The notes beneath the pieces are model-generated. The model saw only the letters and a program-made list of their open reading frames with translations, had not been told where the DNA came from and did not search any database. Made by a program: the position numbers and the translations under genes. From contig CAWBOK010000003.1 of NCBI GenBank assembly GCA_963790415.1, positions 404,409 through 468,408 of the forward strand: a stretch of DNA of 64,000 nucleotides. Reading direction: 5' to 3'. This DNA comes from an uncultured Actinomycetota bacterium (lineage in GTDB: Bacteria > Actinomycetota > Thermoleophilia > RBG-16-64-13). This document shows, piece after piece, positions 1-40,200 of the stretch. How positions within the stretch are numbered: position 1 is the first letter of the stretch; every line of letters begins with the position of its first letter.

Positions 1-325
1 GGCGGCCATGGGCGGCCGCTTCGCCAAGGTGGAGATGGGGCCGGTTATCGTGCTCTTCGACGCCACCCGGCCGGACGAGCTACTCGACATGGAGCTGATG
101 GGCCGTCTGGTGACCAGCCAACTGGCGGACGCCGACGTCGTGGCGGTCTCAAAGATCGACGCGGTCTCCCCCGCCGAGCGAGACCGGGCGATGGCCGCCG
201 CGAGAGAAGTGATCCCGGGAGCGGAATTCATCGGAGTGTCGTCGGTCACGGGCGAAGGGATCGACGCCCTCTTGGCCTACATCGTCGGCGGCCTTCAGCC
301 GGCTGGCTTAGAGGTGGAGGCTTGA
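1..325 (+). CDS. G3E-family P-loop GTPase (HypB/UreG/CobW/MeaB-like), C-terminal part; 5' end lies outside the window
   Basis: ORF 8..325 translation ends ...ADADVVAVSKIDAVSPAERDRAMAAAREVIPGAEFIGVSSVTGEGIDALLAYI, typical of the C-terminal half of G3E GTPases. Frame is open to the window edge. Confidence 0.55.
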   Translation, partial: AAMGGRFAKVEMGPVIVLFDATRPDELLDMELMGRLVTSQLADADVVAVSKIDAVSPAERDRAMAAAREVIPGAEFIGVSSVTGEGIDALLAYIVGGLQPAGLEVEA

Positions 326-813
326 GCGCCGACGACGCCTGCTATACCGATCATGGTGTCAGCGGGTATGGGGTGGCCATCAAGTTCCATCAGGATACCG
401 CCGTGGCTCCAGCGGAGGTGGGCGACTTTCTGCGGGAGATGATGGACGACATCGCTCAGGATTGCGTGCGACGCGGAGCCCGTTTCATCGGGCACATCAA
501 GTCGCACCTGGTGTGCGCTCAGGGTAGTCTCAAAGCCGACACTATCGGCATCAACCATCCGGCGGCGCTGCACGGTGAACTCTCGGGGCCCGCCAACGAC
601 CTGTACGTGGCCATCAACTCCATAGTGCAGGGCATCCCTGAGGACCAGGTGATGGAGGCGACCCTGGGTGCTGCCCACCGACTGGCGGAACGACATGGGT
701 TCCGCGTGGTCAAAGAGAAGGAGCACTTGTACTTCGACAAGTACGACTTTGCCAACGAAGAGGAGTATCTTGAGCAGCTCCGTCTGCAGTTCGAGGCGGA
801 GCCGGAACCGTAA
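322..813 (+). CDS. hypothetical protein between two G3E GTPase genes (possible chaperone partner or CobW C-domain-like)
   Basis: 163-aa ORF with ordinary non-Arg-rich composition, start overlapping the upstream stop by 4 nt. No family recognised. Confidence 0.4.
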   Translation: MSADDACYTDHGVSGYGVAIKFHQDTAVAPAEVGDFLREMMDDIAQDCVRRGARFIGHIKSHLVCAQGSLKADTIGINHPAALHGELSGPANDLYVAINSIVQGIPEDQVMEATLGAAHRLAERHGFRVVKEKEHLYFDKYDFANEEEYLEQLRLQFEAEPEP

Positions 814-833: not shown

Positions 834-1439
834 ATGGTGCGCGTGATATCGATCATCGGGCTGGTGGATTCGGGCAAGAGCAGCCTTATCCGGGTGCTCC
901 TCGACGCGGTGCGCTCCCGGGGTGAGTGCGGCGGCGTGGTGATCAACGACGCGGGGGCCGTGTCCCTGGACGTGCCTGAGATCACCGACCGGCACCCCGT
1001 GCGCACCATCGGAGGCGGTTGAATAGGGTGCAACGAAGCCGGGAGCTTCCAGACCGCGATCAAGTCGATGGCTCGAGACGACGGGGTGAGCGTGTTGTTC
1101 GCCGAACCGTCGGGTATCGTTATACCGTTCGAAATGCGCAACGCCATCAGCGCGGCGGGGCGTGACATACCCGTGACCGTGGGTCCGGTGGTGCTCCTGC
1201 TGAACGCCTCCGAGTCGGAGATGCTGTTCGGGGACGGGCTGGGCCATATCACCGCCCAGCAGATCGCACAGGCGGATATGGTGGCCATCACGAAGGCCGA
1301 TTCCGCTCGGGGTACGGAGATCCTCCGATTGGAGGAAGAGGTGGCGCGGCTGGCTCCCCAGACCCATCTGCACCACGTGAACATGCAGTCGGGCGAGGGT
1401 GTCGCCGCCCTCGCAGAAGCTATACTGGGTCCCCTGTAA
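834..1439 (+). CDS. CobW/COG0523-like G3E GTPase with in-frame UGA (candidate selenocysteine) in the CxCC metal-binding motif
   Basis: ORFs 834..1022 and 1068..1439 are in the same frame, separated only by TGA at 1020-1022 with no other stop. Walker A is IGLVDSGKSS. The CobW-like ENEFGE segment reads VVINDAGAV. The usual GCICC motif reads GGG-U-IGC. Downstream LFAEPSGIVIPFE and ITKAD motifs follow. A hairpin GAAGC-CGGGA-GCTTC lies at 1035-1049. Confidence 0.6.
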
Positions 1440-1549: not shown

Positions 1550-2621
1550 ATGGCTTTGAAGACAGGTGAGATGACGGGCCTCGAGCGCATCGTCTCCGCA
1601 CTGCAACACAAGGAAGGCGACCGCGTGCCGGCGGGCCCGCTGGTGTGCGGGGCGGCTCGGCGGGTGCTGGGCGTCAACTTATCGGGACTGGGCACAGGAC
1701 TCCGACGTGACGATCGAGAGCATGGTCCAGGCGCAGAAGCTCATCAGGCCGGACGGGGTACTGTTGCTGGTGGATCTCTCCGTGGAGGGGGCCGACTTCG
1801 GCGGACCGATGGTCTTCCCCATCGAGGACACTCCGCATCCGGTGTACAAGGACAACCTGATCAAGACTCTCGACGACTACCACAAGGTCGAGCGGATCGA
1901 CCCGCGCAAGGCCAAGCGCATGAGCCATATGGTGCGCTACACCGACGGCGTCATGAAGGCCATGGGCAGCGAGACCGCTGTCATGACCTTCTGCTATGGC
2001 CCGCTGGGCATCCTCTCCATGCTGCGGGGCGCCGAGAAGCTGTTCCTCGACTGCATGAAGAACCCTGAGGTCGTTCACGAGGCCTCCGAGATCATCACCG
2101 ACGTGCTGCTCGAGCAGATCGACGCGCTATGCGAGACCGGCGTGCACGCCGTCGTGCTCGACACGCTGTTCGCGTCCGGTTCGATCATGAGCAAGGACCT
2201 GTGGATGAAGATGGAGGGGCCGTACGCCCGGCGCCTGGCCGAGCGCGTGCATAGCCACGGCAGGGCCGTGATCGTGCACAACTGCGGCAACAACGTGTAC
2301 TTCGACGTCCAGATCGAGACCATGGCGCCGGAGGCGATCAGCTTCGCCTACCTGCCCGACGACTGCAAGACGTCGCAAGAACTCAAAGACAAGTGGGGCG
2401 ACAAGACGTGCCTCATCGGATATGTGCCGCCGAGCCCGGACATGATGCTGCACACTCCCGAGCAGATCAAGGAGACGTGCAAGGAGCAGATCAAGGTGTT
2501 GGCCCCGGGCGGTGGGTTCATCCTCTCCACCGGGTGCGAGTTCCCGCCGAACGGTTCACTGCTCAGCGCCATAGCGATGATGGAAGCGGCCGACGAGTAC
2601 GGCTGGTATCCGATCGCATAG
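1550..2621 (+). CDS. MtaA/MtbA/CmuA-like methylcobamide:acceptor methyltransferase (uroporphyrinogen decarboxylase fold); reading frame changes near 1690
   Basis: N-terminus MALKTGEMTGLERIVSALQHKEGDRVPAGPLVCGAARRVLGVNLS (frame of ORF 1475) matches MtaA N-termini. The rest (ORF 1707..2621, a different frame) matches the UroD/MtaA family through the C-terminus. RBS aaagggg lies before ATG 1550. A single extra base around aacttatcgg restores VNYRDWAQDSDV. Confidence 0.7.
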
Positions 2622-2706: not shown

Positions 2707-3372
2707 ATGGGCACAGACGAACGATTCCAGGAACTGCTCGCCGAGATGAAAGACGGCGTCATCGAGTACGACGAGGACCGGGTGATCGCAGCCGCGCAGG
2801 CCGTCGTCGACGAGGGCTTCGACGCCTATGACGGCATCATGAACGGCCTGGCCGCCGGTATGGAAGTGGTGGGAGAGCTCTTCGACTCCCAGGAGTACTT
2901 CGTGCCCGAAGTCCTCATGTGCGCCGACGCCCTCTACGCCGGTCTCGACATCCTGCGTCCCAAGGTGGACATGGCGGGTCGCGAGACCATCAAGGGTGAA
3001 GTGGTCATCGGTGTGGTGGAAGGCGACGTGCACGACATCGGCAAGAACCTGGTCAAGATGATGTTCGAAGTGGCCGGCTTCACCGTCCACGACCTGGGCG
3101 CCGATGTGCCCATCGACGACTTCGTCGAGGCGCAGATCTCCACCAATTCCGACATCGTGTGCCTCTCCGCCATGATGACCACCACCATGATGGGCATGAA
3201 GAAGGCCATCGTGAAGCTGAAAGAGAAGAACCCCAACGTCATGATCATGCTCGGTGGCGCCCCCGTCACCGGCGAGATCGCCGACATGTTCGGCGCCGAC
3301 GGCTACTCCGAGAACGCCTCCAACGCCGTGTCGGAAGCCATCAAGATGGTGGCGGCGCTGCGGAAGATGTAG
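2707..3372 (+). CDS. corrinoid (cobalamin-binding) protein of methyltransferase systems (MtaC/MtbC/MttC-like)
   Basis: B12-binding DxHxxG motif (GDVHDIGKN), followed by a Rossmann-like C-domain (LSAMMTTTM...MLGGAP). RBS GGAGGG lies 5 nt before the ATG. Confidence 0.85.
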   Translation: MGTDERFQELLAEMKDGVIEYDEDRVIAAAQAVVDEGFDAYDGIMNGLAAGMEVVGELFDSQEYFVPEVLMCADALYAGLDILRPKVDMAGRETIKGEVVIGVVEGDVHDIGKNLVKMMFEVAGFTVHDLGADVPIDDFVEAQISTNSDIVCLSAMMTTTMMGMKKAIVKLKEKNPNVMIMLGGAPVTGEIADMFGADGYSENASNAVSEAIKMVAALRKM

Positions 3373-3427: not shown

Positions 3428-4282
3428 ATGGTGAGGTCGAGTGAGATGGTCGGCCGCGTGAGCAAGAAGAGACGAGTCAAGGCCCACGTGGGCCCGGTGG
3501 CGCGCCGCGCTCTGACCGCCGCGATGGAAGACATCGCGCGGGCCGCCGGCGCGGACGTCATCGGGTTCGGCGACGTCAGCGCGGCGCTGCCGGCCGATTT
3601 CCATCACCTGCCGGTGGGAGTATCGCTCGGCGTGGTGCATCCGGCCGTCCGATCGCTCCATCTACTGCCGGGAGGATCGCCTGCCGTCGAACTCGAGCGG
3701 GCCTTGGGCGATCATCGCGACAGGCATGCGCAGGTGTTGCTCGAGACGACCCTGAGCCGGCTGGCCGAATACCTGCAGACCCAGGGGTTTCGCTACTTCT
3801 GTTGTCCACCTGAGGTGGACCCTATGGACGCACCCTTCACTGCACTCCTTGTGCGTCGCTTCTCCCACAAAGCGGCCGCAACGTGTGCTGGGCTTGGTTG
3901 GGTGGGTAGGCACGGATTGCTGAACCACCCGGAGTATGGGCCGCATGTGACTTGGGCGACACTGGTGACCAACGCGCCTCTCGACGTCGGTGCTCCCATC
4001 GTCGAGAGCGCATGTGGGGACTGTAGCCTCTGCGTGTCCGCCTGTCCCGCCGGAGCGATATCCGGCCGGCCGTGGCGGCGCGATGATGGCATGGTGAGTC
4101 TGGTCGACGCCGAGAAGTGTCGCCAGATGTTGGTGGACAACGAGCGCGCCACAGGCCGCCGTTTCTGCGGGCGGTGCGTCGTTGTCTGCGCGGAGGCACG
4201 CATGGCCGCGCGTGGCGGCGTCTCCGCACGTTCGGACGAGAGAGGAGGTGGTGCGCGGCTGGACATGGAGAGCGCTCTATAG
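3428..4282 (+). CDS. QueG/RdhA-like iron-sulfur protein (epoxyqueuosine-reductase/reductive-dehalogenase superfamily) with two 4Fe-4S motifs
   Basis: CGDCSLCVSACPAG and CGRCVVVCAE cluster motifs. The N-terminal domain resembles QueG. The part of ORF 3254..4282 overlapping the corrinoid gene is treated as spurious, so the start is placed at the first ATG after 3372. Confidence 0.55.
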   Translation: MVRSSEMVGRVSKKRRVKAHVGPVARRALTAAMEDIARAAGADVIGFGDVSAALPADFHHLPVGVSLGVVHPAVRSLHLLPGGSPAVELERALGDHRDRHAQVLLETTLSRLAEYLQTQGFRYFCCPPEVDPMDAPFTALLVRRFSHKAAATCAGLGWVGRHGLLNHPEYGPHVTWATLVTNAPLDVGAPIVESACGDCSLCVSACPAGAISGRPWRRDDGMVSLVDAEKCRQMLVDNERATGRRFCGRCVVVCAEARMAARGGVSARSDERGGGARLDMESAL

Positions 4283-4302
4283 TCCCTCTACAACGAAGGA
4301 GG

Positions 4303-5238
4303 ATGATGGGTAAGCAGGCAGTCATAGATGCCTATGAAGGGCGCTATACCCCGGTCGTGCCGTGGGTGCCCTACGTGGGCGTCCACGGAGCATATCTGAT
4401 CGGGGAGACGGCCACGAAGGTGCTGCAGGATTCCGATCTACTGGCGAAGGCGGTGGTCAACGCCGCCGAACGCTACAAGGCCGACGGCATCCCGTTGATC
4501 TTCGATCTGGCCGTCGAGGCCATGTCGATGGGAATCACGGCCAAGTGGTTCGACGATAACCCACCTACGGTGATCGAGCATCCGCTGGCAGACAAGACCC
4601 TGGCGGAAGCGGGCCTGAAGATCCCCGGTCCCACCGACGGTCGTTTTCCGACGGTCATCGCGGCGGGCAAGAAGGCCAAAGCGCAGTTGGGCGACGTGGC
4701 CCTCATCGGCCTCGTGTGCGGCCCGCTCACCTTGGCCTCGCACATGCGCGGCGCCAAGATGTTCACCGACATGGTGAAGAAGCCCGAGCTCGCCATGGAG
4801 ATCATGGAGTTCGCGGGCAAGGTGTGCGCGGAGTCGGCGCGCATCTATGCCGAAGAGATCGGCTGCGACATCGTCGCACTGGTGGAGCCCGTTGGCAGCC
4901 AGGTGCGCCCGGACACCTACGACAAGTTCGTGATCCCGGCGTGCCAGGAAGCCTTGGACAACATCCACAAGGCCGGCAAGACCAGCGCTCTCTACATCTG
5001 CGGCGACGCCACCAAGATCGTCGAGAACATGATGTACACCGGCGCCAGCTGCGTGTGCGTCGACGAGCAGTTGAACATGAACTACGTGCGCGACTGCGCC
5101 CTCAAGTATGGTCGCGGCTTCGGCGGCAACCTGAAGCTGACCCTGGCCCTCTCCCTCGGGATCATCGATCCGCGGGAAGACGCCATCGTCAGCCTGGCGG
5201 CCGGCGGCAAGATCGGCTACACCTTCTCCCCTGGCTGA
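4303..5238 (+). CDS. second MtaA/UroD-family methylcobamide methyltransferase
   Basis: MMGKQAVIDAYEGRYTPVVPWVPYVG... shows UroD-family similarity along its full length. RBS GAAGGAGG sits immediately upstream. Intact 311 aa. Confidence 0.8.
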   Translation: MMGKQAVIDAYEGRYTPVVPWVPYVGVHGAYLIGETATKVLQDSDLLAKAVVNAAERYKADGIPLIFDLAVEAMSMGITAKWFDDNPPTVIEHPLADKTLAEAGLKIPGPTDGRFPTVIAAGKKAKAQLGDVALIGLVCGPLTLASHMRGAKMFTDMVKKPELAMEIMEFAGKVCAESARIYAEEIGCDIVALVEPVGSQVRPDTYDKFVIPACQEALDNIHKAGKTSALYICGDATKIVENMMYTGASCVCVDEQLNMNYVRDCALKYGRGFGGNLKLTLALSLGIIDPREDAIVSLAAGGKIGYTFSPG

Positions 5239-5240
5239 GA

Positions 5241-5375
5241 CATGCCCTATGACGTTCCGGTTGAGAACGTGGATAAGGTCATCGAAGTCAAGACCTGGTA
5301 CGAGACGTACTACGCGCACTATCCGAATGTCGACTACCCGTCGATCCTACCCAAACGCAGCCCAGTCAAGGCTTA
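5241..5375 (+). CDS. small ORF (44 aa, MPYDVPVENVDKVIEVKTWYETYYAHYPNVDYPSILPKRSPVKA)
   Basis: Fills the 150-nt gap between mtaA-2 and the thioredoxin-like gene with ordinary composition. Below the ORF-track length cut-off. Confidence 0.2.
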
Positions 5376-5391
5376 GAGGGAGGTGACCCAC

Positions 5392-5733
5392 GTGGCTGAC
5401 GACAAGATCCTTGTCGAGGTGCTCACGCTCGACTCCCTTCAGTGACCGGCCTGCGGGTACATGGTCGATGTACTCAATACGCTGCCGCCGCAAGTGAAGG
5501 AATTCATCGAGTACAAGGAGTGGTCCATCAAGAACCCTGAGGGCATCCAGATGTTCATGGCCCGCAAGGGGAAGGTGCTGCCCACCTTGTGCATCAATGA
5601 AGCGTGCGTCTACGAGAGCATCATCCCGACTCTGGACGAACTCTACGAGACGCTGATCGCCGCTGCAAAGAGCGACTCTCAGAGGGAGACCCTCCGCGCG
5701 GCCTTCGACAAGGCCATGGAGGAGTACAACTAG
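5392..5733 (+). CDS. small thioredoxin-fold protein (Thioredoxin_3-like) with UxxC active site; candidate selenoprotein
   Basis: RBS AGGGAGG lies 9 nt before GTG 5392. In-frame translation is MADDKILVEVLTLDSLQ-U(TGA 5443-5445)-PACGYMVDVLNTL...LPTLCINEACVYESIIPTLDELYE. The beta1/CxxC/alpha1 layout and the C-terminal cis-Pro region are those of the fold. An 8-bp hairpin GGGTACAT-GGTCG-ATGTACTC lies at 5455-5475, 9 nt after the UGA. Confidence 0.6.
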
Positions 5734-5884
5734 ATCGAGACCGGATTCCCTCCGGTGGATGCTGGGGCGGCGGCCGCGAATGCGGCCGCCGCCCCGCCTC
5801 ACTCTCGGCTCTAGTAGGCTGTCGAAGATGATCGAGGACGGTGTATCGCGCCACCCAGCGCTGTACACGCAAGGAGTCGACTCC

Positions 5885-6444
5885 ATGGCGGTGAGACGCA
5901 TCTGCATGCACGCCTGTGGGGGCATCACCCGCGTAGGAGCGACCGTCGGCCCGACTGGCCACGTACATGGTGGCCGAGGAACTGCTCCCCGAGAAGACGC
6001 TCATCTCGTGTGCTCCGGCGTTTCTGCGCGGCGTCGAGGAGGACGTGCTCATGGTGCTGAAGAGCCCTTCCTTCGCCCTCGACGGCTGCGAGTGGAGCTG
6101 CGGCACCAACCTGCTCTATCTGGCCGGCATCACGCCTGCGGTGCGCTTCCTGCTGCCCGAGTACGCGGAGGCGCAGGGCTTCGATCTCTCGGGAGGCAGC
6201 CGCCGCTTTCCGTCGGGGGTGACGCAGGAGTTCGCCCGAGTCGTCGCCGAGCGGGTGGCCGGCATCGCCGAAGGCATGATGGCTCGAGGCGGCGCGTACC
6301 AGTTCCAGCCGGCCCGAACTCAAGATGCAGCCGGACAAGTGGTTCCGCACGGCGCCGAACATGGAGGGCATCATGGAGTTCGTCCGTATCGAACCGGGCG
6401 TGTATCGGCCCGTGACTATGCCGCTTCTGCCCGAAGAGGCCTGA
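5885..6444 (+). pseudogene. DGC-domain protein paralog 1, interrupted by at least two +1 frame changes
   Basis: N-terminus MAVRRICMHACGGITRVGA is in one frame, ARLATYMVAEELLPEKTLISCAPAFLRGVEEDVLMVLKSPSFALDGCEWSCGTN in a second, and RPELKMQPDKWFRTAPNMEGIMEFVRIEPG in a third. Each segment aligns with the downstream intact paralog. RBS AAGGAG lies before ATG 5885. Confidence 0.5.
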
Positions 6445-6445
6445 C

Positions 6446-7069
6446 ATGGCGGTGGAGAAGGTGACCATCTTCCCTTGTGGGGGGATCGGCGACCCGGTGT
6501 CGTCGGTGACCCGGCTGGCCGGCTACGTTCTGGCGGAGGATCTTCTGCCCGGACCGAGTGGAGCTGGTCGAGTATCCCCCCGATCATCACCGGCGTGCCG
6601 GAGGAACTGGAGGCCGGTGCAGGCCTATCCGGTGATCGTCCTCGACGGCTGCGGCCACCGCTGTGGCTCCAATGCGCTGAATCTGGTGGGCATCAAGCCG
6701 GCGGCCCGCCTCTTCACGCCCCGGGTGCGTTCGGACACCAAGCACGCCATCGGGAAGCGGCGACCGTTCCCGGAGGTGTCGGGTCAGAAGCTGGCAAAGG
6801 ACCTGGCTGAGAGGGCCGCCGCCATCGCCCGCCACATGCTCGAAGACCCGGCGTACGTCTTCGCACGACAGACGGTCAGGCCCAACCCCGAGGGACTCCA
6901 CGACGAGTCCTTGGATATCGAGTCCGCCATGGGGTATGAGGAGATAGAGACGGGCTGCTTCCAATGCGCCGGAATGTGCGCGTTCAAGATGCGGGACGAT
7001 CCCGAGGTGCGCCGCATGCTCGAAGAGGACGTCGAGGAGATCGAGGATGTGGAGGACCTGAGGCCGTGA
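6446..7069 (+). CDS. DGC-domain protein paralog 2 (CGGI...DGC...CGSN motifs, acidic C-terminal tail)
   Basis: Continuous 207-aa ORF: IFPCGGIGDPVSSVTRLAGYVLAEDLLP...VIVLDGCGHRCGSNALNLVGIKPA...ETGCFQCAGMCAF. The middle segment PSGAGRVSPRSSPACRRNW has odd composition, and an alternative frame reads IITGVPEEL. Confidence 0.55.
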   Translation: MAVEKVTIFPCGGIGDPVSSVTRLAGYVLAEDLLPGPSGAGRVSPRSSPACRRNWRPVQAYPVIVLDGCGHRCGSNALNLVGIKPAARLFTPRVRSDTKHAIGKRRPFPEVSGQKLAKDLAERAAAIARHMLEDPAYVFARQTVRPNPEGLHDESLDIESAMGYEEIETGCFQCAGMCAFKMRDDPEVRRMLEEDVEEIEDVEDLRP

Positions 7070-7281
7070 TCGTTCGCCTGCTGCTGCGTGGCTGAGTGAC
7101 CTGCGGTCCGGCGGTGCGTCGGGCTCTGGAATCCACGCCCGAGGTGGAGCTCGTGGCCATGGATTGGGACGAGCACTGGGCAGACGTGCGCTTCCTCGAC
7201 CCCACATACGGGTACCGTCAGTTGCAGACCCGCCTGATGCTCGCGGGCGCTTGGTGCGACGTGTGGCCGAAGGAGGTGTGA
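7066..7281 (+). CDS. mini thioredoxin-fold protein with UxxC motif; candidate selenoprotein
   Basis: GTG 7066 overlaps the DGC-2 stop, with GGAGGA 9 nt upstream. Translation is MIVRLLLRG-U(TGA 7093-7095)-VTCGPAVRRALESTPEVELVAMDW... A hairpin CCGGCG-GUG-CGUCGG lies at 7108-7122, extendable to 9 bp with wobble pairs. Confidence 0.5.
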
Positions 7282-7682
7282 TGATGACCCGATCTCTGCA
7301 GGGTTTGCCCGCGCTGAACATACAGGTGGTCTCCGAAGGCGGGCACTGCGTTCCCTGACTGATCGCGATAGACGCCACCCGGGAGGTGGCGGCGGAGTTC
7401 GCTGAGGGCGAGGTGGCCGTCGAGGTGGTCACGCTGAAGGAACCTGCCGGCGCGGAACGGTACCGCGAGTTGCGGCGTTCGGCGGGGCAGCACCTTCCTG
7501 TTCCGTGCGTACTTCTGGAAGGGCGTCTGGTCTCCCCGGGAATCCCGGAACCGGACGGGCTTCGCGAGGTCATCCGAGAGGCGCTGCTCCACGGTCCGCC
7601 AGAGTTCGGCGACGCGACTCCCAGCGACGAGGCTCCCGGTGACGCCAGGACGGTCGACGAGAGGGTGGGCACGGCGGAGTGA
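7281..7682 (+). CDS. thioredoxin-fold protein (Thioredoxin_3-like) with CxxU motif; candidate selenoprotein
   Basis: ATG 7281 with AGGAGG 5 nt upstream. Translation is MMTRSLQGLPALNIQVVSEGGHCVP-U(TGA 7356-7358)-LIAIDATREVAAEFAEGEVAVEVVTL...LPVPCVLLEGRLVSPGIPEPDGLREVI. The cis-Pro/GR region of the thioredoxin fold is present. A hairpin CGCCACC-CGGGA-GGTGGCG lies at 7373-7391. Confidence 0.6.
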
Positions 7683-8275
7683 TCCTGCTGCGGGGGTTCT
7701 ACGGACAGACCGTCGAGATCGAAGAGGACCGTCTCTACGACGGCGCCGAGGAGCTGTGGGTGCGGGACATGGGCGACCGCGTGCGCGTCGGCGTTACGAA
7801 GGTCGGCGTGCTCCTGATGGGCGGCATCGAGTCCACGGAGTTCTTCGTGGAGCCCGGCGACCACATCGAGAAGGACGGCGACCTGGTCTTCTTCGAGACC
7901 TTCAAGGCGGTCCGCTACGTGCTCGCTCCGCTGACCGGGGAGGTGATCGTGGTCAACGACAAGGTGGTCGACGACCCGGAGTTGTTCGACGACGATCCCT
8001 ACGGCGAGGCCTGGTTGGTCGAGGTTCGCCCGGCTTCCCCGGGCTGGGCGGATTCGTCGCTGAACTCGCCGCAGGACTATGCCTCGGCGCTTGAGCGCTC
8101 GGAGCATTGCGCCGAGGGATCGGAGGTCTTGCTCGAGGTCAAGAAAGGCTCCCCCACGTGCCGTTCGCTCTACGGCGGCATCCGTGGGAACGAGCCCGGC
8201 GAGGGGAGTCTCAGCTGGAGAGACCCCGCCGCCGGCGGTGCGCGACCTCCAGAGGAGGAAGGCACCGCCGACTGA
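7679..8275 (+). CDS. glycine-cleavage H-protein-like (lipoyl-domain fold) protein with extended C-terminus
   Basis: LWVRDMGDRVRVGVTKVGVLLMGGIESTEFFVEPGDHIEKDGDLVFFETFKAVRYVLAPLTGEVIVVNDKVVDDPELFDDDPYGEAWLVEV matches the GcvH family, including the ETFKA lysine position. Start overlaps the upstream stop. Confidence 0.65.
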   Translation: MILLRGFYGQTVEIEEDRLYDGAEELWVRDMGDRVRVGVTKVGVLLMGGIESTEFFVEPGDHIEKDGDLVFFETFKAVRYVLAPLTGEVIVVNDKVVDDPELFDDDPYGEAWLVEVRPASPGWADSSLNSPQDYASALERSEHCAEGSEVLLEVKKGSPTCRSLYGGIRGNEPGEGSLSWRDPAAGGARPPEEEGTAD

Positions 8276-39296: not shown

Positions 39297-39584
39297 ATGG
39301 GCGGCGTCTACGGCACTCCCGACATCCGCATCACTGTCACCGAGGTCCAAGGCTCCGGGAAGGCACCCTGCGGGTACCAGCCCGGCGACTCGTGGCTGGT
39401 CACCGATCTGTGTGCACCCGAAGGGCTCTGCACGTGGGCGATCGCTTCCATCGCCCCGTATCTTGCCACCCTTCGCTTTGGAGGCAGCGTGCCGTGGGAG
39501 GATGACAAGGATAGGGTCGTGGCGTGCTGTTCAGACGCCGCGAACCCCGTGGCGTTCGAACTGCGCAGACTTCCGGCTTCCTAG
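39297..39584 (+). CDS. TIGR04076-family small Cys-rich protein
   Basis: CTWAIASIAPYLATLRFGG...ACCSDAANPVAFEL signature, RBS AAAGGAGG upstream. Confidence 0.55.
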   Translation: MGGVYGTPDIRITVTEVQGSGKAPCGYQPGDSWLVTDLCAPEGLCTWAIASIAPYLATLRFGGSVPWEDDKDRVVACCSDAANPVAFELRRLPAS

Positions 39585-39588
39585 TCCG

Positions 39589-40200
39589 ATGACGTACCAC
39601 GGCGCCGCACAAGAGTTGCAGTTCCTCGTTGAGAGGGCAAAGGATTTCGGGGCAACGCACGCCGCGCTGATGCCCGCCGAGCGGGTAGTGGTGGATGAGC
39701 GCGTGCGGTTGAAGTGCGCCGTACCGGTGTGCCAGGGCTACGGGAACTACCTGCACTGCCCGCCCAACACCATGTCGGTGGCCGAGTTCCGCGTTGTGCT
39801 CGAGCGGTTCTCCGTGGCGCTGCTGGTGCAGGTCGAGTCCGAGCGGAACTCCGCCGATCTGGACGCGCAGGGGCTGGCGGGGAAGAACGCGGCCGAACTC
39901 GAGGCCCTGCTCCATGGCGAACCGAACCTACTGCTCGGCCGCGTCATCACCCAGATGGAGGCCGAGGCGTTCAAGGCCGGTTACTACTACGCCGCCGGCT
40001 TCAGCGGGGGCATCTGTCTGCTATGCCCGGAGTGCGTCGGCGTGGGTAGCGGCAAACCCTGTCGCCGACCGTACGAGGCCCGTCCGTCGATGGAGGCCGT
40101 GGGCATCGACGTGTTCAAGACCGCGGCCAACGCGGGTCTGGCCATCTCGTTGTCGTCGGATCAACCTGTGAGGTGGACCGGATTGGTCCTGGTGGACTAG
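39589..40200 (+). CDS. DUF2284 predicted metal-binding protein
   Basis: KCAVPVCQGYGNYLHCPP...ICLLCPECVG motifs. Start MTYHGAAQEL lies 4 nt after the upstream stop. Confidence 0.55.
   Translation: MTYHGAAQELQFLVERAKDFGATHAALMPAERVVVDERVRLKCAVPVCQGYGNYLHCPPNTMSVAEFRVVLERFSVALLVQVESERNSADLDAQGLAGKNAAELEALLHGEPNLLLGRVITQMEAEAFKAGYYYAAGFSGGICLLCPECVGVGSGKPCRRPYEARPSMEAVGIDVFKTAANAGLAISLSSDQPVRWTGLVLVD

What the first reader, a model, noticed from the sequence alone, without database searches (positions are those of the whole stretch)
834..1439. CobW/COG0523-like metallochaperone GTPase with UGA replacing the first Cys of the GCxCC metal-binding motif
ORFs 834..1022 and 1068..1439 are one gene in one frame, split only by TGA 1020-1022. 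Walker A (GLVDSGKSS), the NEFGE-equivalent (VINDAG) and the downstream switch and ITKAD motifs are those of COG0523. The canonical GCICC reads GGG-U-IGC. A Sec in a G3E metallochaperone metal site would strongly alter metal affinity and selectivity. Tandem G3E GTPases next to a corrinoid protein suggest cobalt/corrinoid handling. The hairpin GAAGC-CGGGA-GCTTC at 1035-1049 is short, with a possible 3-bp lower stem GGU/ACC.
Basis: partly seen in the sequence, partly recalled or inferred. Interest (0 to 1): 0.8.

Follow-up and report, generated by a model that had tools for sequence, protein, structure and literature searches.

The report
Selenocysteine CobW-like GTPase gene, known family
The two short ORFs are one gene for a small metal-chaperone-type GTPase that carries selenocysteine in its metal-binding motif; this selenoprotein family has been known since 2007, and this copy is a divergent actinobacterial member that annotation pipelines split in two.

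Summary
Window 834..1439 (+) is one reading frame with a single in-frame TGA at 1020-1022. The same TGA sits at the same column in 19 distinct relatives at 49-95% identity, always in the motif IGGG-U-IGC-x-EAGSF. Twelve nucleotides downstream lies the hairpin GAAGC-CGGGA-GCUUC (1035-1049). Its codons GCC-GGG-AGC are the only 3 of 49 conserved, four-fold-or-more degenerate codon columns with no synonymous variation, so the RNA itself is under selection, as expected for a SECIS element. The Sec aligns with the first Cys of the YjiA/CobW GCICC motif. The second Cys is Gly and the third is kept.

This is a known kind: the "CobW-related selenoprotein" (NCBIfam NF041053, UxxC; Zhang & Gladyshev 2007). 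The window copy scores 121.9 bits against a cutoff of 180. It belongs to an actinobacterial (Thermoleophilia/Gaiellales-like) sister clade of the deltaproteobacterial family.

It always sits in a module CbbQ-AAA+ / VWA / G3E-1 (CICC) / 163-aa protein / G3E-2 (Sec), inside corrinoid methyltransferase clusters and sometimes next to CbiMNQO. Two further conserved UGA genes lie 6 kb downstream. The role as a Co or Zn chaperone is inferred, not shown. Sec-insertion genes could not be checked.

The parts
2..325 (+). C-terminal part of G3E-1, the Cys paralogue; the gene is cut by the window edge. Full-length relatives are 203-211 aa and carry the canonical GGGCICCE motif.
   Evidence: Pfam cobW and NF041053 weak hits. 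Full-length orthologues in L001, L019, L020 and L021 carry CICC.
322..813 (+). 163-aa 'mid' protein, always found between G3E-1 and G3E-2. It has no Pfam family and a ferredoxin-like alpha/beta fold, with invariant Cys7, His62, His119 and His135.
834..1439 (+). G3E-2: the complete selenoprotein gene, 201 codons plus stop, Sec at residue 63.
858..881 (+). Walker A / P-loop GLVDSGKS.
1020..1022 (+). In-frame UGA read as selenocysteine. It lies in the motif GGG-U-IGC, at the position of the first Cys of CxCC.
   Evidence: Conserved as TGA in 19 of 19 distinct relatives. Aligned to the YjiA GCICC motif.
1035..1049 (+). SECIS-like hairpin: 5-bp stem GAAGC/GCUUC with loop CGGGA. The stem starts 12 nt after the UGA and the loop starts 17 nt after it.
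   Evidence: Invariant in all relatives. Only one G-U variant is seen, at a single stem pair. Codons +6, +7 and +8 are the only 3 of 49 conserved degenerate columns that use a single codon. The same CGGGA loop follows the UGA of the neighbouring Trx-like gene.
1098..1115 (+). Walker B-like FAEPSG.
1287..1301 (+). ITKAD, the guanine-specificity motif (NKxD equivalent).
1550..2621 (+). URO-D/MtaA-type methyltransferase gene, the conserved downstream neighbour. In this window it is broken by one extra T at about 1679.
2707..3372 (+). Corrinoid (B12-binding) protein gene.
   Evidence: Orthologues are annotated PF02607 + PF02310. 92% identity by tblastn.

Best explanation
Window 834..1439 is one gene for a roughly 200-residue G3E-family GTPase (CobW/HypB/UreG fold, no CobW_C domain). 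Codon 63 is a UGA decoded as selenocysteine. Decoding is probably directed by the small hairpin GAAGC-CGGGA-GCUUC that begins 12 nt downstream. The Sec replaces the first Cys of the CxCC metal-binding motif, giving U-I-G-C. The gene is the actinobacterial counterpart of the known CobW-related selenoprotein (NF041053, UxxC). It is always the last gene of a five-gene module: CbbQ/NorQ-type AAA+, VWA protein, G3E-1 with a normal CICC motif, a 163-aa ferredoxin-fold protein, then G3E-2(Sec). This module is embedded in corrinoid-dependent methyltransferase clusters. Inferred mechanism: G3E-1 and G3E-2 bind a metal ion through their Cys and Sec/Cys motifs, possibly as a heterodimer. The metal is most likely Co(II), with Zn(II) as the alternative. 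The metal would be handed over on GTP hydrolysis while the AAA+/VWA pair remodels the recipient, which would be the URO-D-type methyltransferase or the corrinoid protein. What is shown: one frame, a conserved UGA, RNA-level constraint on the hairpin, the motif alignment, the synteny. What is inferred: actual Se insertion, the metal identity, the heterodimer, the client. The confidence of 0.8 applies to the identity claim (a genuine Sec-encoding CobW-related G3E gene); the specific metal-delivery mechanism on its own would rate about 0.5.
For: There is one frame with a single TGA. All 27 database homologues are C-terminal fragments, meaning the gene was split at this point everywhere. TGA is at the same column in 19 distinct sequences at 49-95% protein identity, with IGGG-U-IGC-x-EAGSF invariant. 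The codons after the TGA change only synonymously (ATA/ATC, GGG/GGC, TGC/TGT), so that stretch is translated. L024 lacks the Met that gene callers used as a restart. GCC-GGG-AGC in the hairpin are the only 3 of 49 conserved degenerate codon columns with a single codon. Sec aligns with Cys1 of the YjiA GCICC motif. NF041053 is the best NCBIfam hit, covering profile positions 2-194 of 195. A genuine NF041053 fragment starts at profile position 64, right after the Sec. Deltaproteobacterial loci show the same G3E-1 / mid / G3E-2(U-x-G-C) arrangement. G2 from Actinomycetota and G2 from Deltaproteobacteria are monophyletic in 197 of 200 NJ bootstraps with the motif columns masked. The module is conserved in every locus with enough flank. 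CbiMNQO is adjacent in L001 and L021. Two more conserved in-frame UGA genes lie in the same cluster, one with the same CGGGA loop. TGA is the normal stop codon of neighbouring genes. The family is listed as a UxxC selenoprotein in PMC9312934 and PMC13188914.
Against: No selA, selB, selD or tRNA-Sec was found in the 64-kb window or in any fetched locus, and the rest of the genome could not be searched. The hairpin is only 5 bp and is invariant, so there is no covariation. The proposed lower stem is not supported. No Rfam SECIS family matched. The NF041053 score of 121.9 is below the 180 cutoff and no higher than the Cys paralogue G3E-1 scores (116-119 bits). Pairwise identity to deltaproteobacterial G2 (30-33%) equals that to G3E-1 (32%), so orthology rests on the motif, the synteny and an NJ tree that could suffer long-branch attraction. 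There is no direct evidence for metal binding, for which metal, or for GTPase activity.
Confidence: 0.8

Rival explanations
1. The gene is a pseudogene, or the TGA is an assembly or sequencing error that created a premature stop.
For: The window does contain probable assembly errors. One is an extra T at about 1679 that frameshifts the neighbouring URO-D gene. There are also dozens of 1-nt indels relative to the 95%-identical locus L023.
Against: The TGA is a substitution-type feature. It is present at the same column in 19 distinct sequences from independent Illumina and long-read assemblies. Purifying selection acts on both sides of it. The observed errors are indels, not substitutions.
Confidence: 0.02
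2. The gene is genuinely split. UGA is a real stop, and a 62-aa P-loop peptide and a 123-aa C-terminal peptide are made separately and assemble.
For: An ATG at 1068 is present in 17 of 17 sequences in the first comparison set (column +16). Gene callers everywhere predict the C-terminal fragment.
Against: The 45 nt between the TGA and that ATG encode invariant residues (I, G, C, E, A, G, S, F, A, K) in frame, with synonymous-only changes at IGC. The Met is replaced by Leu in L024. The stretch that would go untranslated contains the conserved third Cys of the metal motif. No spacing or ribosome-binding signal was examined that would support reinitiation.
Confidence: 0.04
3. The UGA is read through as a standard amino acid (Trp, Cys or Gly), either by near-cognate suppression or by a reassigned code, and not as Sec.
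For: Sec machinery was not found in the sequence available.
Against: TGA terminates neighbouring genes such as 8..325, 4117..5238 and 6446..7069, so the code is not reassigned. The position is Cys in paralogues, which is the classical Sec/Cys pattern. A constrained hairpin lies at SECIS distance. The related family is curated as a selenoprotein. Two more UGA-at-Cys-motif genes with hairpins are nearby.
Confidence: 0.04
4. The gene is as described, but Sec is not a ligand for a free metal ion. Instead the U-x-x-C pair would be a redox-active selenylsulfide, or the selenolate would ligate the cobalt of a corrinoid during cofactor loading or repair. The latter would resemble the G-protein chaperone MeaB and the thiolato-cobalamin intermediates of CblC/CblD.
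For: Most bacterial selenoproteins with UxxC or CxxU motifs are redox proteins (PMC13188914). The middle Cys of CxCC has been lost, leaving a CxxC-like spacing. The cluster contains corrinoid proteins, a RACo activase, a Trx-like selenoprotein and a GcvH-like protein. The statements about MeaB and CblC/CblD come from my own background knowledge and were not checked here.
Against: The G3E fold and its CxCC site are known metal-ion sites (Haas et al. 2009, PMC2770081). A paralogue with an intact CICC motif, a NorQD-like metal-insertion pair and a CbiMNQO cobalt importer are all adjacent, which points to metal-ion handling.
Confidence: 0.2

Closest known systems
CobW-related selenoprotein, NCBIfam NF041053 ('Cobalamin synthesis protein CobW-like', UxxC; first reported from the Olavius algarvensis delta-1 symbiont, Zhang & Gladyshev 2007, as tabulated in PMC9312934 and PMC13188914)
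   Same: Both are short G3E GTPases of about 195-200 aa. Sec is at the first Cys of CxCC, Gly at the second and Cys at the third (U-x-G-C). Both occupy the same gene position after G3E-1 and the 163-170-aa protein, and have the same neighbours: URO-D, CbbQ, VWA and CbiM/Q/O.
   Different: Identity is only 30-33%, and the HMM score of 121.9 is below the 180 cutoff. The flanking motif differs: IGGG-U-IGC[NST]EAGSF versus LRGG-U-[AL]GCSLASS. The SECIS differs: a 5-bp hairpin 12 nt downstream versus a long stem that starts at the UGA. The host phylum is Actinomycetota rather than Thermodesulfobacteriota.
COG0523 metallochaperone GTPases (CobW, YjiA, YeiR, ZigA, Nha3)
   Same: They share the G3E GTPase domain, with Walker A, the NEFGE-like, Walker B-like and TKxD motifs in the same order. 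The metal motif is at the same position. Haas et al. describe a subfamily that co-localises with corrinoid methyltransferases (PMC2770081).
   Different: The window protein has no CobW_C C-terminal domain and no His-rich linker. CxCC is reduced to UxGC. E-values to the CobW, ZigA and YjiA models are only 1e-7 to 1e-4.
HypB / UreG (nickel-inserting G3E GTPases)
   Same: They have a similar size, a single G3E domain and a Cys-containing metal motif in the same loop. They work with accessory proteins to load a metal into a client enzyme.
   Different: They use different motifs (CH in HypB, CPH in UreG). The window protein has only weak C-terminal similarity to hypB (E = 0.0017). No hydrogenase or urease genes are nearby.
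NorQ/NorD, CbbQ/CbbO, CobS/CobT (MoxR AAA+ with a VWA partner); this comparison concerns the neighbouring genes
   Same: An adjacent AAA_5+CbbQ_C protein of about 277 aa and a VWA protein of about 760-910 aa accompany G3E-2 in every locus with enough flank. NorQD is a documented metal-insertion machine (PMC9976466, PMC13036017).
   Different: No NOR, Rubisco or CobN client is present. The clients here would be methyltransferase or corrinoid proteins. Nothing about this module was found in the searched literature.

Membership tests
Bacterial selenoprotein gene | In-frame UGA conserved among orthologues, with coding conservation on both sides | tested here: met
   TGA is at the same column in 19 distinct sequences, and only synonymous changes flank it.
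Bacterial selenoprotein gene | SECIS stem-loop shortly downstream of the UGA, with a G-containing apical loop about 16-37 nt after the UGA | tested here: met
   The hairpin is at 1035-1049, and its loop CGGGA starts 17 nt after the UGA. It is under RNA-level constraint: 3 of 49 conserved degenerate columns use a single codon, and all three lie in the hairpin. There is no covariation and no Rfam hit. The distance rule comes from my own knowledge of the bSECIS model.
Bacterial selenoprotein gene | Cys in place of Sec in homologues | tested here: met
   Cys is at this position in YjiA and in the paralogue G3E-1. However, no Cys-containing orthologue of the G2 clade was found among 1.84 billion representatives.
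Bacterial selenoprotein gene | Sec machinery (selA, selB, selC, selD) in the same genome | not testable with these tools
   None was found in the window or the loci. Indirect support comes from two more conserved UGA genes with hairpins in the cluster.
Bacterial selenoprotein gene | Selenium demonstrated in the protein | not testable with these tools
   This needs 75Se labelling or mass spectrometry.
NF041053 CobW-related selenoprotein (equivalog) | HMM score at or above the curated cutoff of 180 bits | tested here: not met
   The score is 121.9 bits over the full length. The Cys paralogue G3E-1 scores 116-119 bits.
NF041053 CobW-related selenoprotein (equivalog) | Sec at the family's Sec column, with the U-x-x-C motif | tested here: met
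   The NF041053 fragment P0042 begins at profile position 64, immediately after its UGA. Window Sec63 maps to the same place. The motif is U-I-G-C here and U-[AL]-G-C in the family.
NF041053 CobW-related selenoprotein (equivalog) | Same genomic role (synteny) and common ancestry | tested here: met
   The G3E-1 / mid / G3E-2 order and the URO-D, CbbQ and VWA neighbours occur in both phyla. NJ bootstrap support is 197/200 with the motif columns masked, with a long-branch caveat.
COG0523 (CobW/YjiA/ZigA) | G3E GTPase domain with Walker A, Walker B and NKxD-type motifs | tested here: met
   PF02492 at 3.9e-19. The motifs align with YjiA.
COG0523 (CobW/YjiA/ZigA) | Intact CxCC motif | tested here: not met
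   The motif is U-I-G-C: the first position is Sec, the second Cys is replaced by Gly, and the third Cys is kept.
COG0523 (CobW/YjiA/ZigA) | C-terminal CobW_C domain | tested here: not met
   The protein ends at residue 201 and has no PF07683 hit. The separate 163-aa neighbour is related to the C-terminal domain of a fused G3E, but it is not detectably CobW_C.

The most novel reading that the evidence does not exclude
The conserved module CbbQ-AAA+ / VWA / G3E-1(CICC) / 163-aa ferredoxin-fold protein / G3E-2(UxGC) may be an undescribed maturation machine for corrinoid-dependent methyltransferase systems. In this reading a Cys/Sec heterodimeric G3E pair delivers cobalt to the client, or loads or ejects a corrinoid through a Se-Co bond, while a NorQD-like remodeller opens the client. 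Sec would be obligatory, because no Cys orthologue of G3E-2 exists.
Probability: 0.25. Interest if true: 0.7.

Novelty: new member of a known kind. Interest (0 to 1): 0.38.

Why it matters
It corrects the annotation of a gene that is systematically called as two fragments or as 'hypothetical protein' in Thermoleophilia/Gaiellales-type Actinomycetota. It extends a little-studied selenoprotein family to a second phylum.

It also adds three pieces of context:
- A very small, well-defined SECIS (5-bp stem, CGGGA loop), whose loop is shared with a neighbouring selenoprotein gene.
- A strictly conserved five-gene context with a Cys paralogue and a NorQD-like pair.
- An apparent absence of Cys orthologues.

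Together these make the question "what does selenium do in a G3E metal site?" experimentally approachable. The existence of Sec in a CobW-like protein is not itself new.

Tried and rejected
- Rfam at gathering thresholds found no SECIS or other RNA family in the window.
- Covariation tests on the hairpin and on a 3-bp lower extension were negative. The core is invariant and the extension pairs in only some sequences.
That search found no Cys orthologue of G2.
- ARAGORN found no tRNA-Sec in the window or in 14 loci. Pfam scans of 30 further window proteins found no sel genes.
- Zhang & Gladyshev 2007 (PMC1976440) does not mention CobW in its held main text, so the attribution rests on the two review tables.
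- Literature searches for the CobW + MoxR/VWA + corrinoid module, and for selenocysteine in Thermoleophilia, returned nothing relevant.
- The pseudogene, split-gene and code-reassignment readings were considered and rejected, as set out under the rival explanations.
- Raw pairwise identity does not separate G2 (Deltaproteobacteria) from G1 as the closer relative. Orthology was therefore argued from the motif, the synteny and a bootstrapped NJ tree.

Full report
**Observation.**
Translating 834..1439 in one frame gives 201 codons interrupted only by TGA at 1020-1022, then a TAA stop. The sequence around the stop reads TIGGG-*-IGCNEAGSF. The hairpin GAAGC-CGGGA-GCTTC occupies 1035-1049.

**Family.**
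- With the stop replaced by Cys, Pfam finds PF02492 (CobW/HypB/UreG nucleotide-binding domain) at 3.9e-19 over residues 4-177.
- The best NCBIfam hit is NF041053, "CobW-related selenoprotein", matched over profile positions 2-194 of 195 at 121.9 bits. This is below the curated cutoff of 180.
- The only solved relative by sequence is E. coli YjiA (1NIJ, E = 1.3e-5). The alignment puts Walker A, the NEFGE-like segment, the Walker B-like segment and TKxD in register. It places the UGA codon on the first Cys of GCICC, Gly65 on the second Cys and Cys66 on the third.
- The protein ends after the GTPase domain and has no CobW_C domain.

**Is the UGA real and conserved?**
- A search of 5.8 billion proteins returned 27 homologues at 48-93% identity. 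Every one is only the C-terminal 115-133 residues, so gene callers split the gene at this point everywhere.
- I fetched DNA for these and further relatives from GTDB genomes, JGI metagenomes, ENA and Logan assemblies. Reading upstream in frame, all of them have TGA at the same column inside an invariant IGGG-U-IGC-x-EAGSF.
- That makes 19 distinct sequences, with nucleotide identity to the window of 59-95% among the 17 put in the codon alignment. The named records are MAGs of Gaiellales, Thermoleophilia and unclassified Actinomycetota.
- The codons just after the TGA vary only synonymously (ATA/ATC, GGG/GGC, TGC/TGT), so that stretch is translated.
- The Met that gene callers use to restart is Leu in L024.
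- TGA is the ordinary stop codon of neighbouring genes, so the genetic code is not reassigned.
- A pseudogene, an assembly error and a genuinely split gene are therefore all very unlikely.

**SECIS.**
- The hairpin starts 12 nt after the UGA and its CGGGA loop starts 17 nt after it.
- In a codon alignment of 17 distinct sequences there are 49 columns where an amino acid that is at least four-fold degenerate is conserved. Exactly three of these use a single codon in all sequences: +6 GCC, +7 GGG and +8 AGC. All three lie in the hairpin. By contrast, the three Gly codons just before the UGA use all four codons. This is direct evidence for selection on the RNA.
- The five stem pairs are invariant apart from A-U to G-U at one pair, so there is no covariation. 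A three-pair lower extension pairs in only some sequences and does not beat the shuffled or slid controls.
- Rfam has no match.

**Relationship to the known selenoprotein.**
- Two reviews list a [quoted passage not shown] (COG0523, NF041053, motif UxxC). Both attribute it to Zhang & Gladyshev 2007 on the Olavius symbiont (PMC9312934, PMC13188914).
- An exhaustive HMM search with the C-terminal profile found only 18 representatives below 1e-10 among 1.84 billion. Some are fragments that begin MGCSLA or VGCSLA, that is, right after a UGA. One of them scores 197.9 bits on NF041053 starting at profile position 64.
- Through the 163-aa neighbour I reached two further loci. L021 is from a MAG annotated as Deltaproteobacteria; L022's source organism is not given, and I group it with L021 because its G3E-2 carries the same LRGG-U-xGCSLASS motif. 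In both, the third gene of the same triad reads LRGG-U-[AL]GCSLASS. So U-x-G-C and the gene position are shared.
- Raw identity between the window protein and these G3E-2 proteins is only 30-33%, no higher than to the Cys paralogue. The paralogue also scores about 116-119 bits on NF041053.
- A neighbour-joining tree with the four motif columns masked recovers the G2 sequences of both groups as one clade in 197 of 200 bootstraps. Long-branch attraction cannot be excluded.
- I therefore file the gene as a new, divergent member (sister clade) of a known kind. It is not a member of the NF041053 equivalog as currently defined.
- No Cys-containing orthologue of the G2 clade appeared. The full-length hits are all G3E-1-type proteins with CICC.

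**Context.**
- In every locus with enough flank the order is: CbbQ/NorQ-type AAA+ (about 277 aa), VWA protein (about 870-910 aa), G3E-1 (203-211 aa, GGGCICCE), a 163-170-aa protein, then G3E-2(Sec).
- The module sits among URO-D/MtaA-type methyltransferases and B12-binding corrinoid proteins. In the window's 95%-identical relative L023 it also sits among a RACo activase and an MtrH-type methyltransferase.
- CbiMNQO cobalt-transporter genes are adjacent in L001 and, in fused form, in L021.
- Haas et al. 2009 had already noted a COG0523 subfamily that co-localises with corrinoid methyltransferases (PMC2770081).
- NorQD is an established metal-insertion AAA+/VWA pair (PMC9976466, PMC13036017).
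- I found no paper describing this particular module.

**Mechanism.**
Shown:
- a translated single frame;
- a conserved UGA at a metal-ligand Cys position;
- an RNA element under constraint at SECIS distance;
- intact GTPase motifs;
- strict synteny with a Cys paralogue and a metal-insertion-type AAA+/VWA pair.

Inferred:
- Sec63 and Cys66 form part of a GTP-controlled metal site, possibly completed across a G3E-1/G3E-2 heterodimer.
- This site supplies a metal to the methyltransferase/corrinoid system. CbiMNQO adjacency favours cobalt.
- The URO-D proteins carry the H-x-C...C pattern (read from the sequence: VHNCG and STGCE). I recall this as the zinc site of MtaA-type enzymes, which keeps zinc as the alternative.
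- A redox role, or a role as ligand to corrinoid cobalt, cannot be excluded for the selenolate.

**Support for Sec decoding in this lineage.**
No sel genes or tRNA-Sec were found in the sequence I could reach. However, the same cluster holds two more conserved in-frame TGA codons at Cys-motif positions.
- An HMA-like ORF (7066..7281, LRG-U-VTCG) has its TGA at 7093-7095.
- A thioredoxin-like ORF (7284..7682, GGHCVP-U-L) has its TGA at 7356-7358.
- Both are conserved in four to six relatives.
- The thioredoxin-like ORF matches NF047660, a "HUIPC motif thioredoxin-like (seleno)protein", at 76 bits against a cutoff of 105.
- It is followed by the hairpin GCCACC-CGGGA-GGUGGC, which has the same loop as the G3E-2 hairpin.

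**Verdict.**
The added value is:
- the extension to a second phylum;
- the minimal SECIS;
- the apparent obligate use of Sec;
- the conserved, undescribed accessory module.

Interest is moderate (0.38). Novelty: new member of a known kind.

Noticed in passing
window 7066..7281 (+), TGA at 7093-7095: A small HMA-like ORF has an in-frame TGA in the motif LRG-U-VTCG (UxxC). The TGA is conserved at the same position in L003, L007, L008, L009, L013 and L023. A G-rich hairpin follows it. The ORF gives only weak hits to NF041115 (UxxU metal-binding (seleno)protein, 16.8 bits) and Pfam HMA (E = 0.037). It is a candidate second selenoprotein in the cluster.
   Followed up: partly
window 7284..7682 (+), TGA at 7356-7358; hairpin 7374-7390: A thioredoxin-like ORF has an in-frame TGA in GGHCVP-U-L (CxxU), conserved in L007, L008, L009 and L023. 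It matches NF047660 'HUIPC motif thioredoxin-like (seleno)protein' at 76.3 bits (cutoff 105), but Sec is at the second position of the pair rather than the first. The downstream hairpin GCCACC-CGGGA-GGUGGC has the same loop as the G3E-2 hairpin.
   Followed up: partly
window about 1679, in the URO-D gene 1550..2621: An extra T (CAACTTATCGG here, CAACTATCGG in the 95%-identical L023) frameshifts the MtaA/URO-D-type methyltransferase, which is intact at 356 aa in L003 and L023. There are about 40 further 1-2-nt indels between the window and L023, many of them in coding regions at 5800-7800 (DGC genes). This suggests long-read assembly errors in one or both records.
   Followed up: yes
window 322..813 (+): This is a highly conserved 163-aa protein family with 454 homologues in Actinomycetota and Desulfobacterota and no Pfam or NCBIfam model. 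It has a ferredoxin-like fold and invariant Cys7, His62, His119 and His135. It always lies between the two G3E genes. It is related to the C-terminal domain of fused 340-360-aa G3E proteins.
   Followed up: partly
L023 599..670 (+), upstream of the cluster in the window's close relative: There is a cobalamin riboswitch aptamer match (RF00174) at 31.6 bits against a gathering score of 31.5, covering a partial model span of 49-166. It lies about 850 nt upstream of the RACo gene that heads the methyltransferase cluster. The equivalent region is outside the window.
   Followed up: no
window 3437..8275 (+) and the same order in L007, L008, L009, L013, L023: A conserved downstream gene string runs: 4Fe-4S protein (281 aa), URO-D, a 90-aa protein with no family, two DGC-domain proteins, the HMA-like (UGA) ORF, the Trx-like (UGA) ORF, and a GcvH-related protein (NF045810, 110 bits against a cutoff of 150). 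Its function is unknown.
   Followed up: partly
window 39412..40200 (+): A DUF2284 (predicted metal-binding) protein. Its domain also matches the DUF2284 parts of two NCBIfam selenoprotein models, MbdU and ArsM/DUF2284. A DUF2284 gene ends the deltaproteobacterial version of the module in L021.
   Followed up: no
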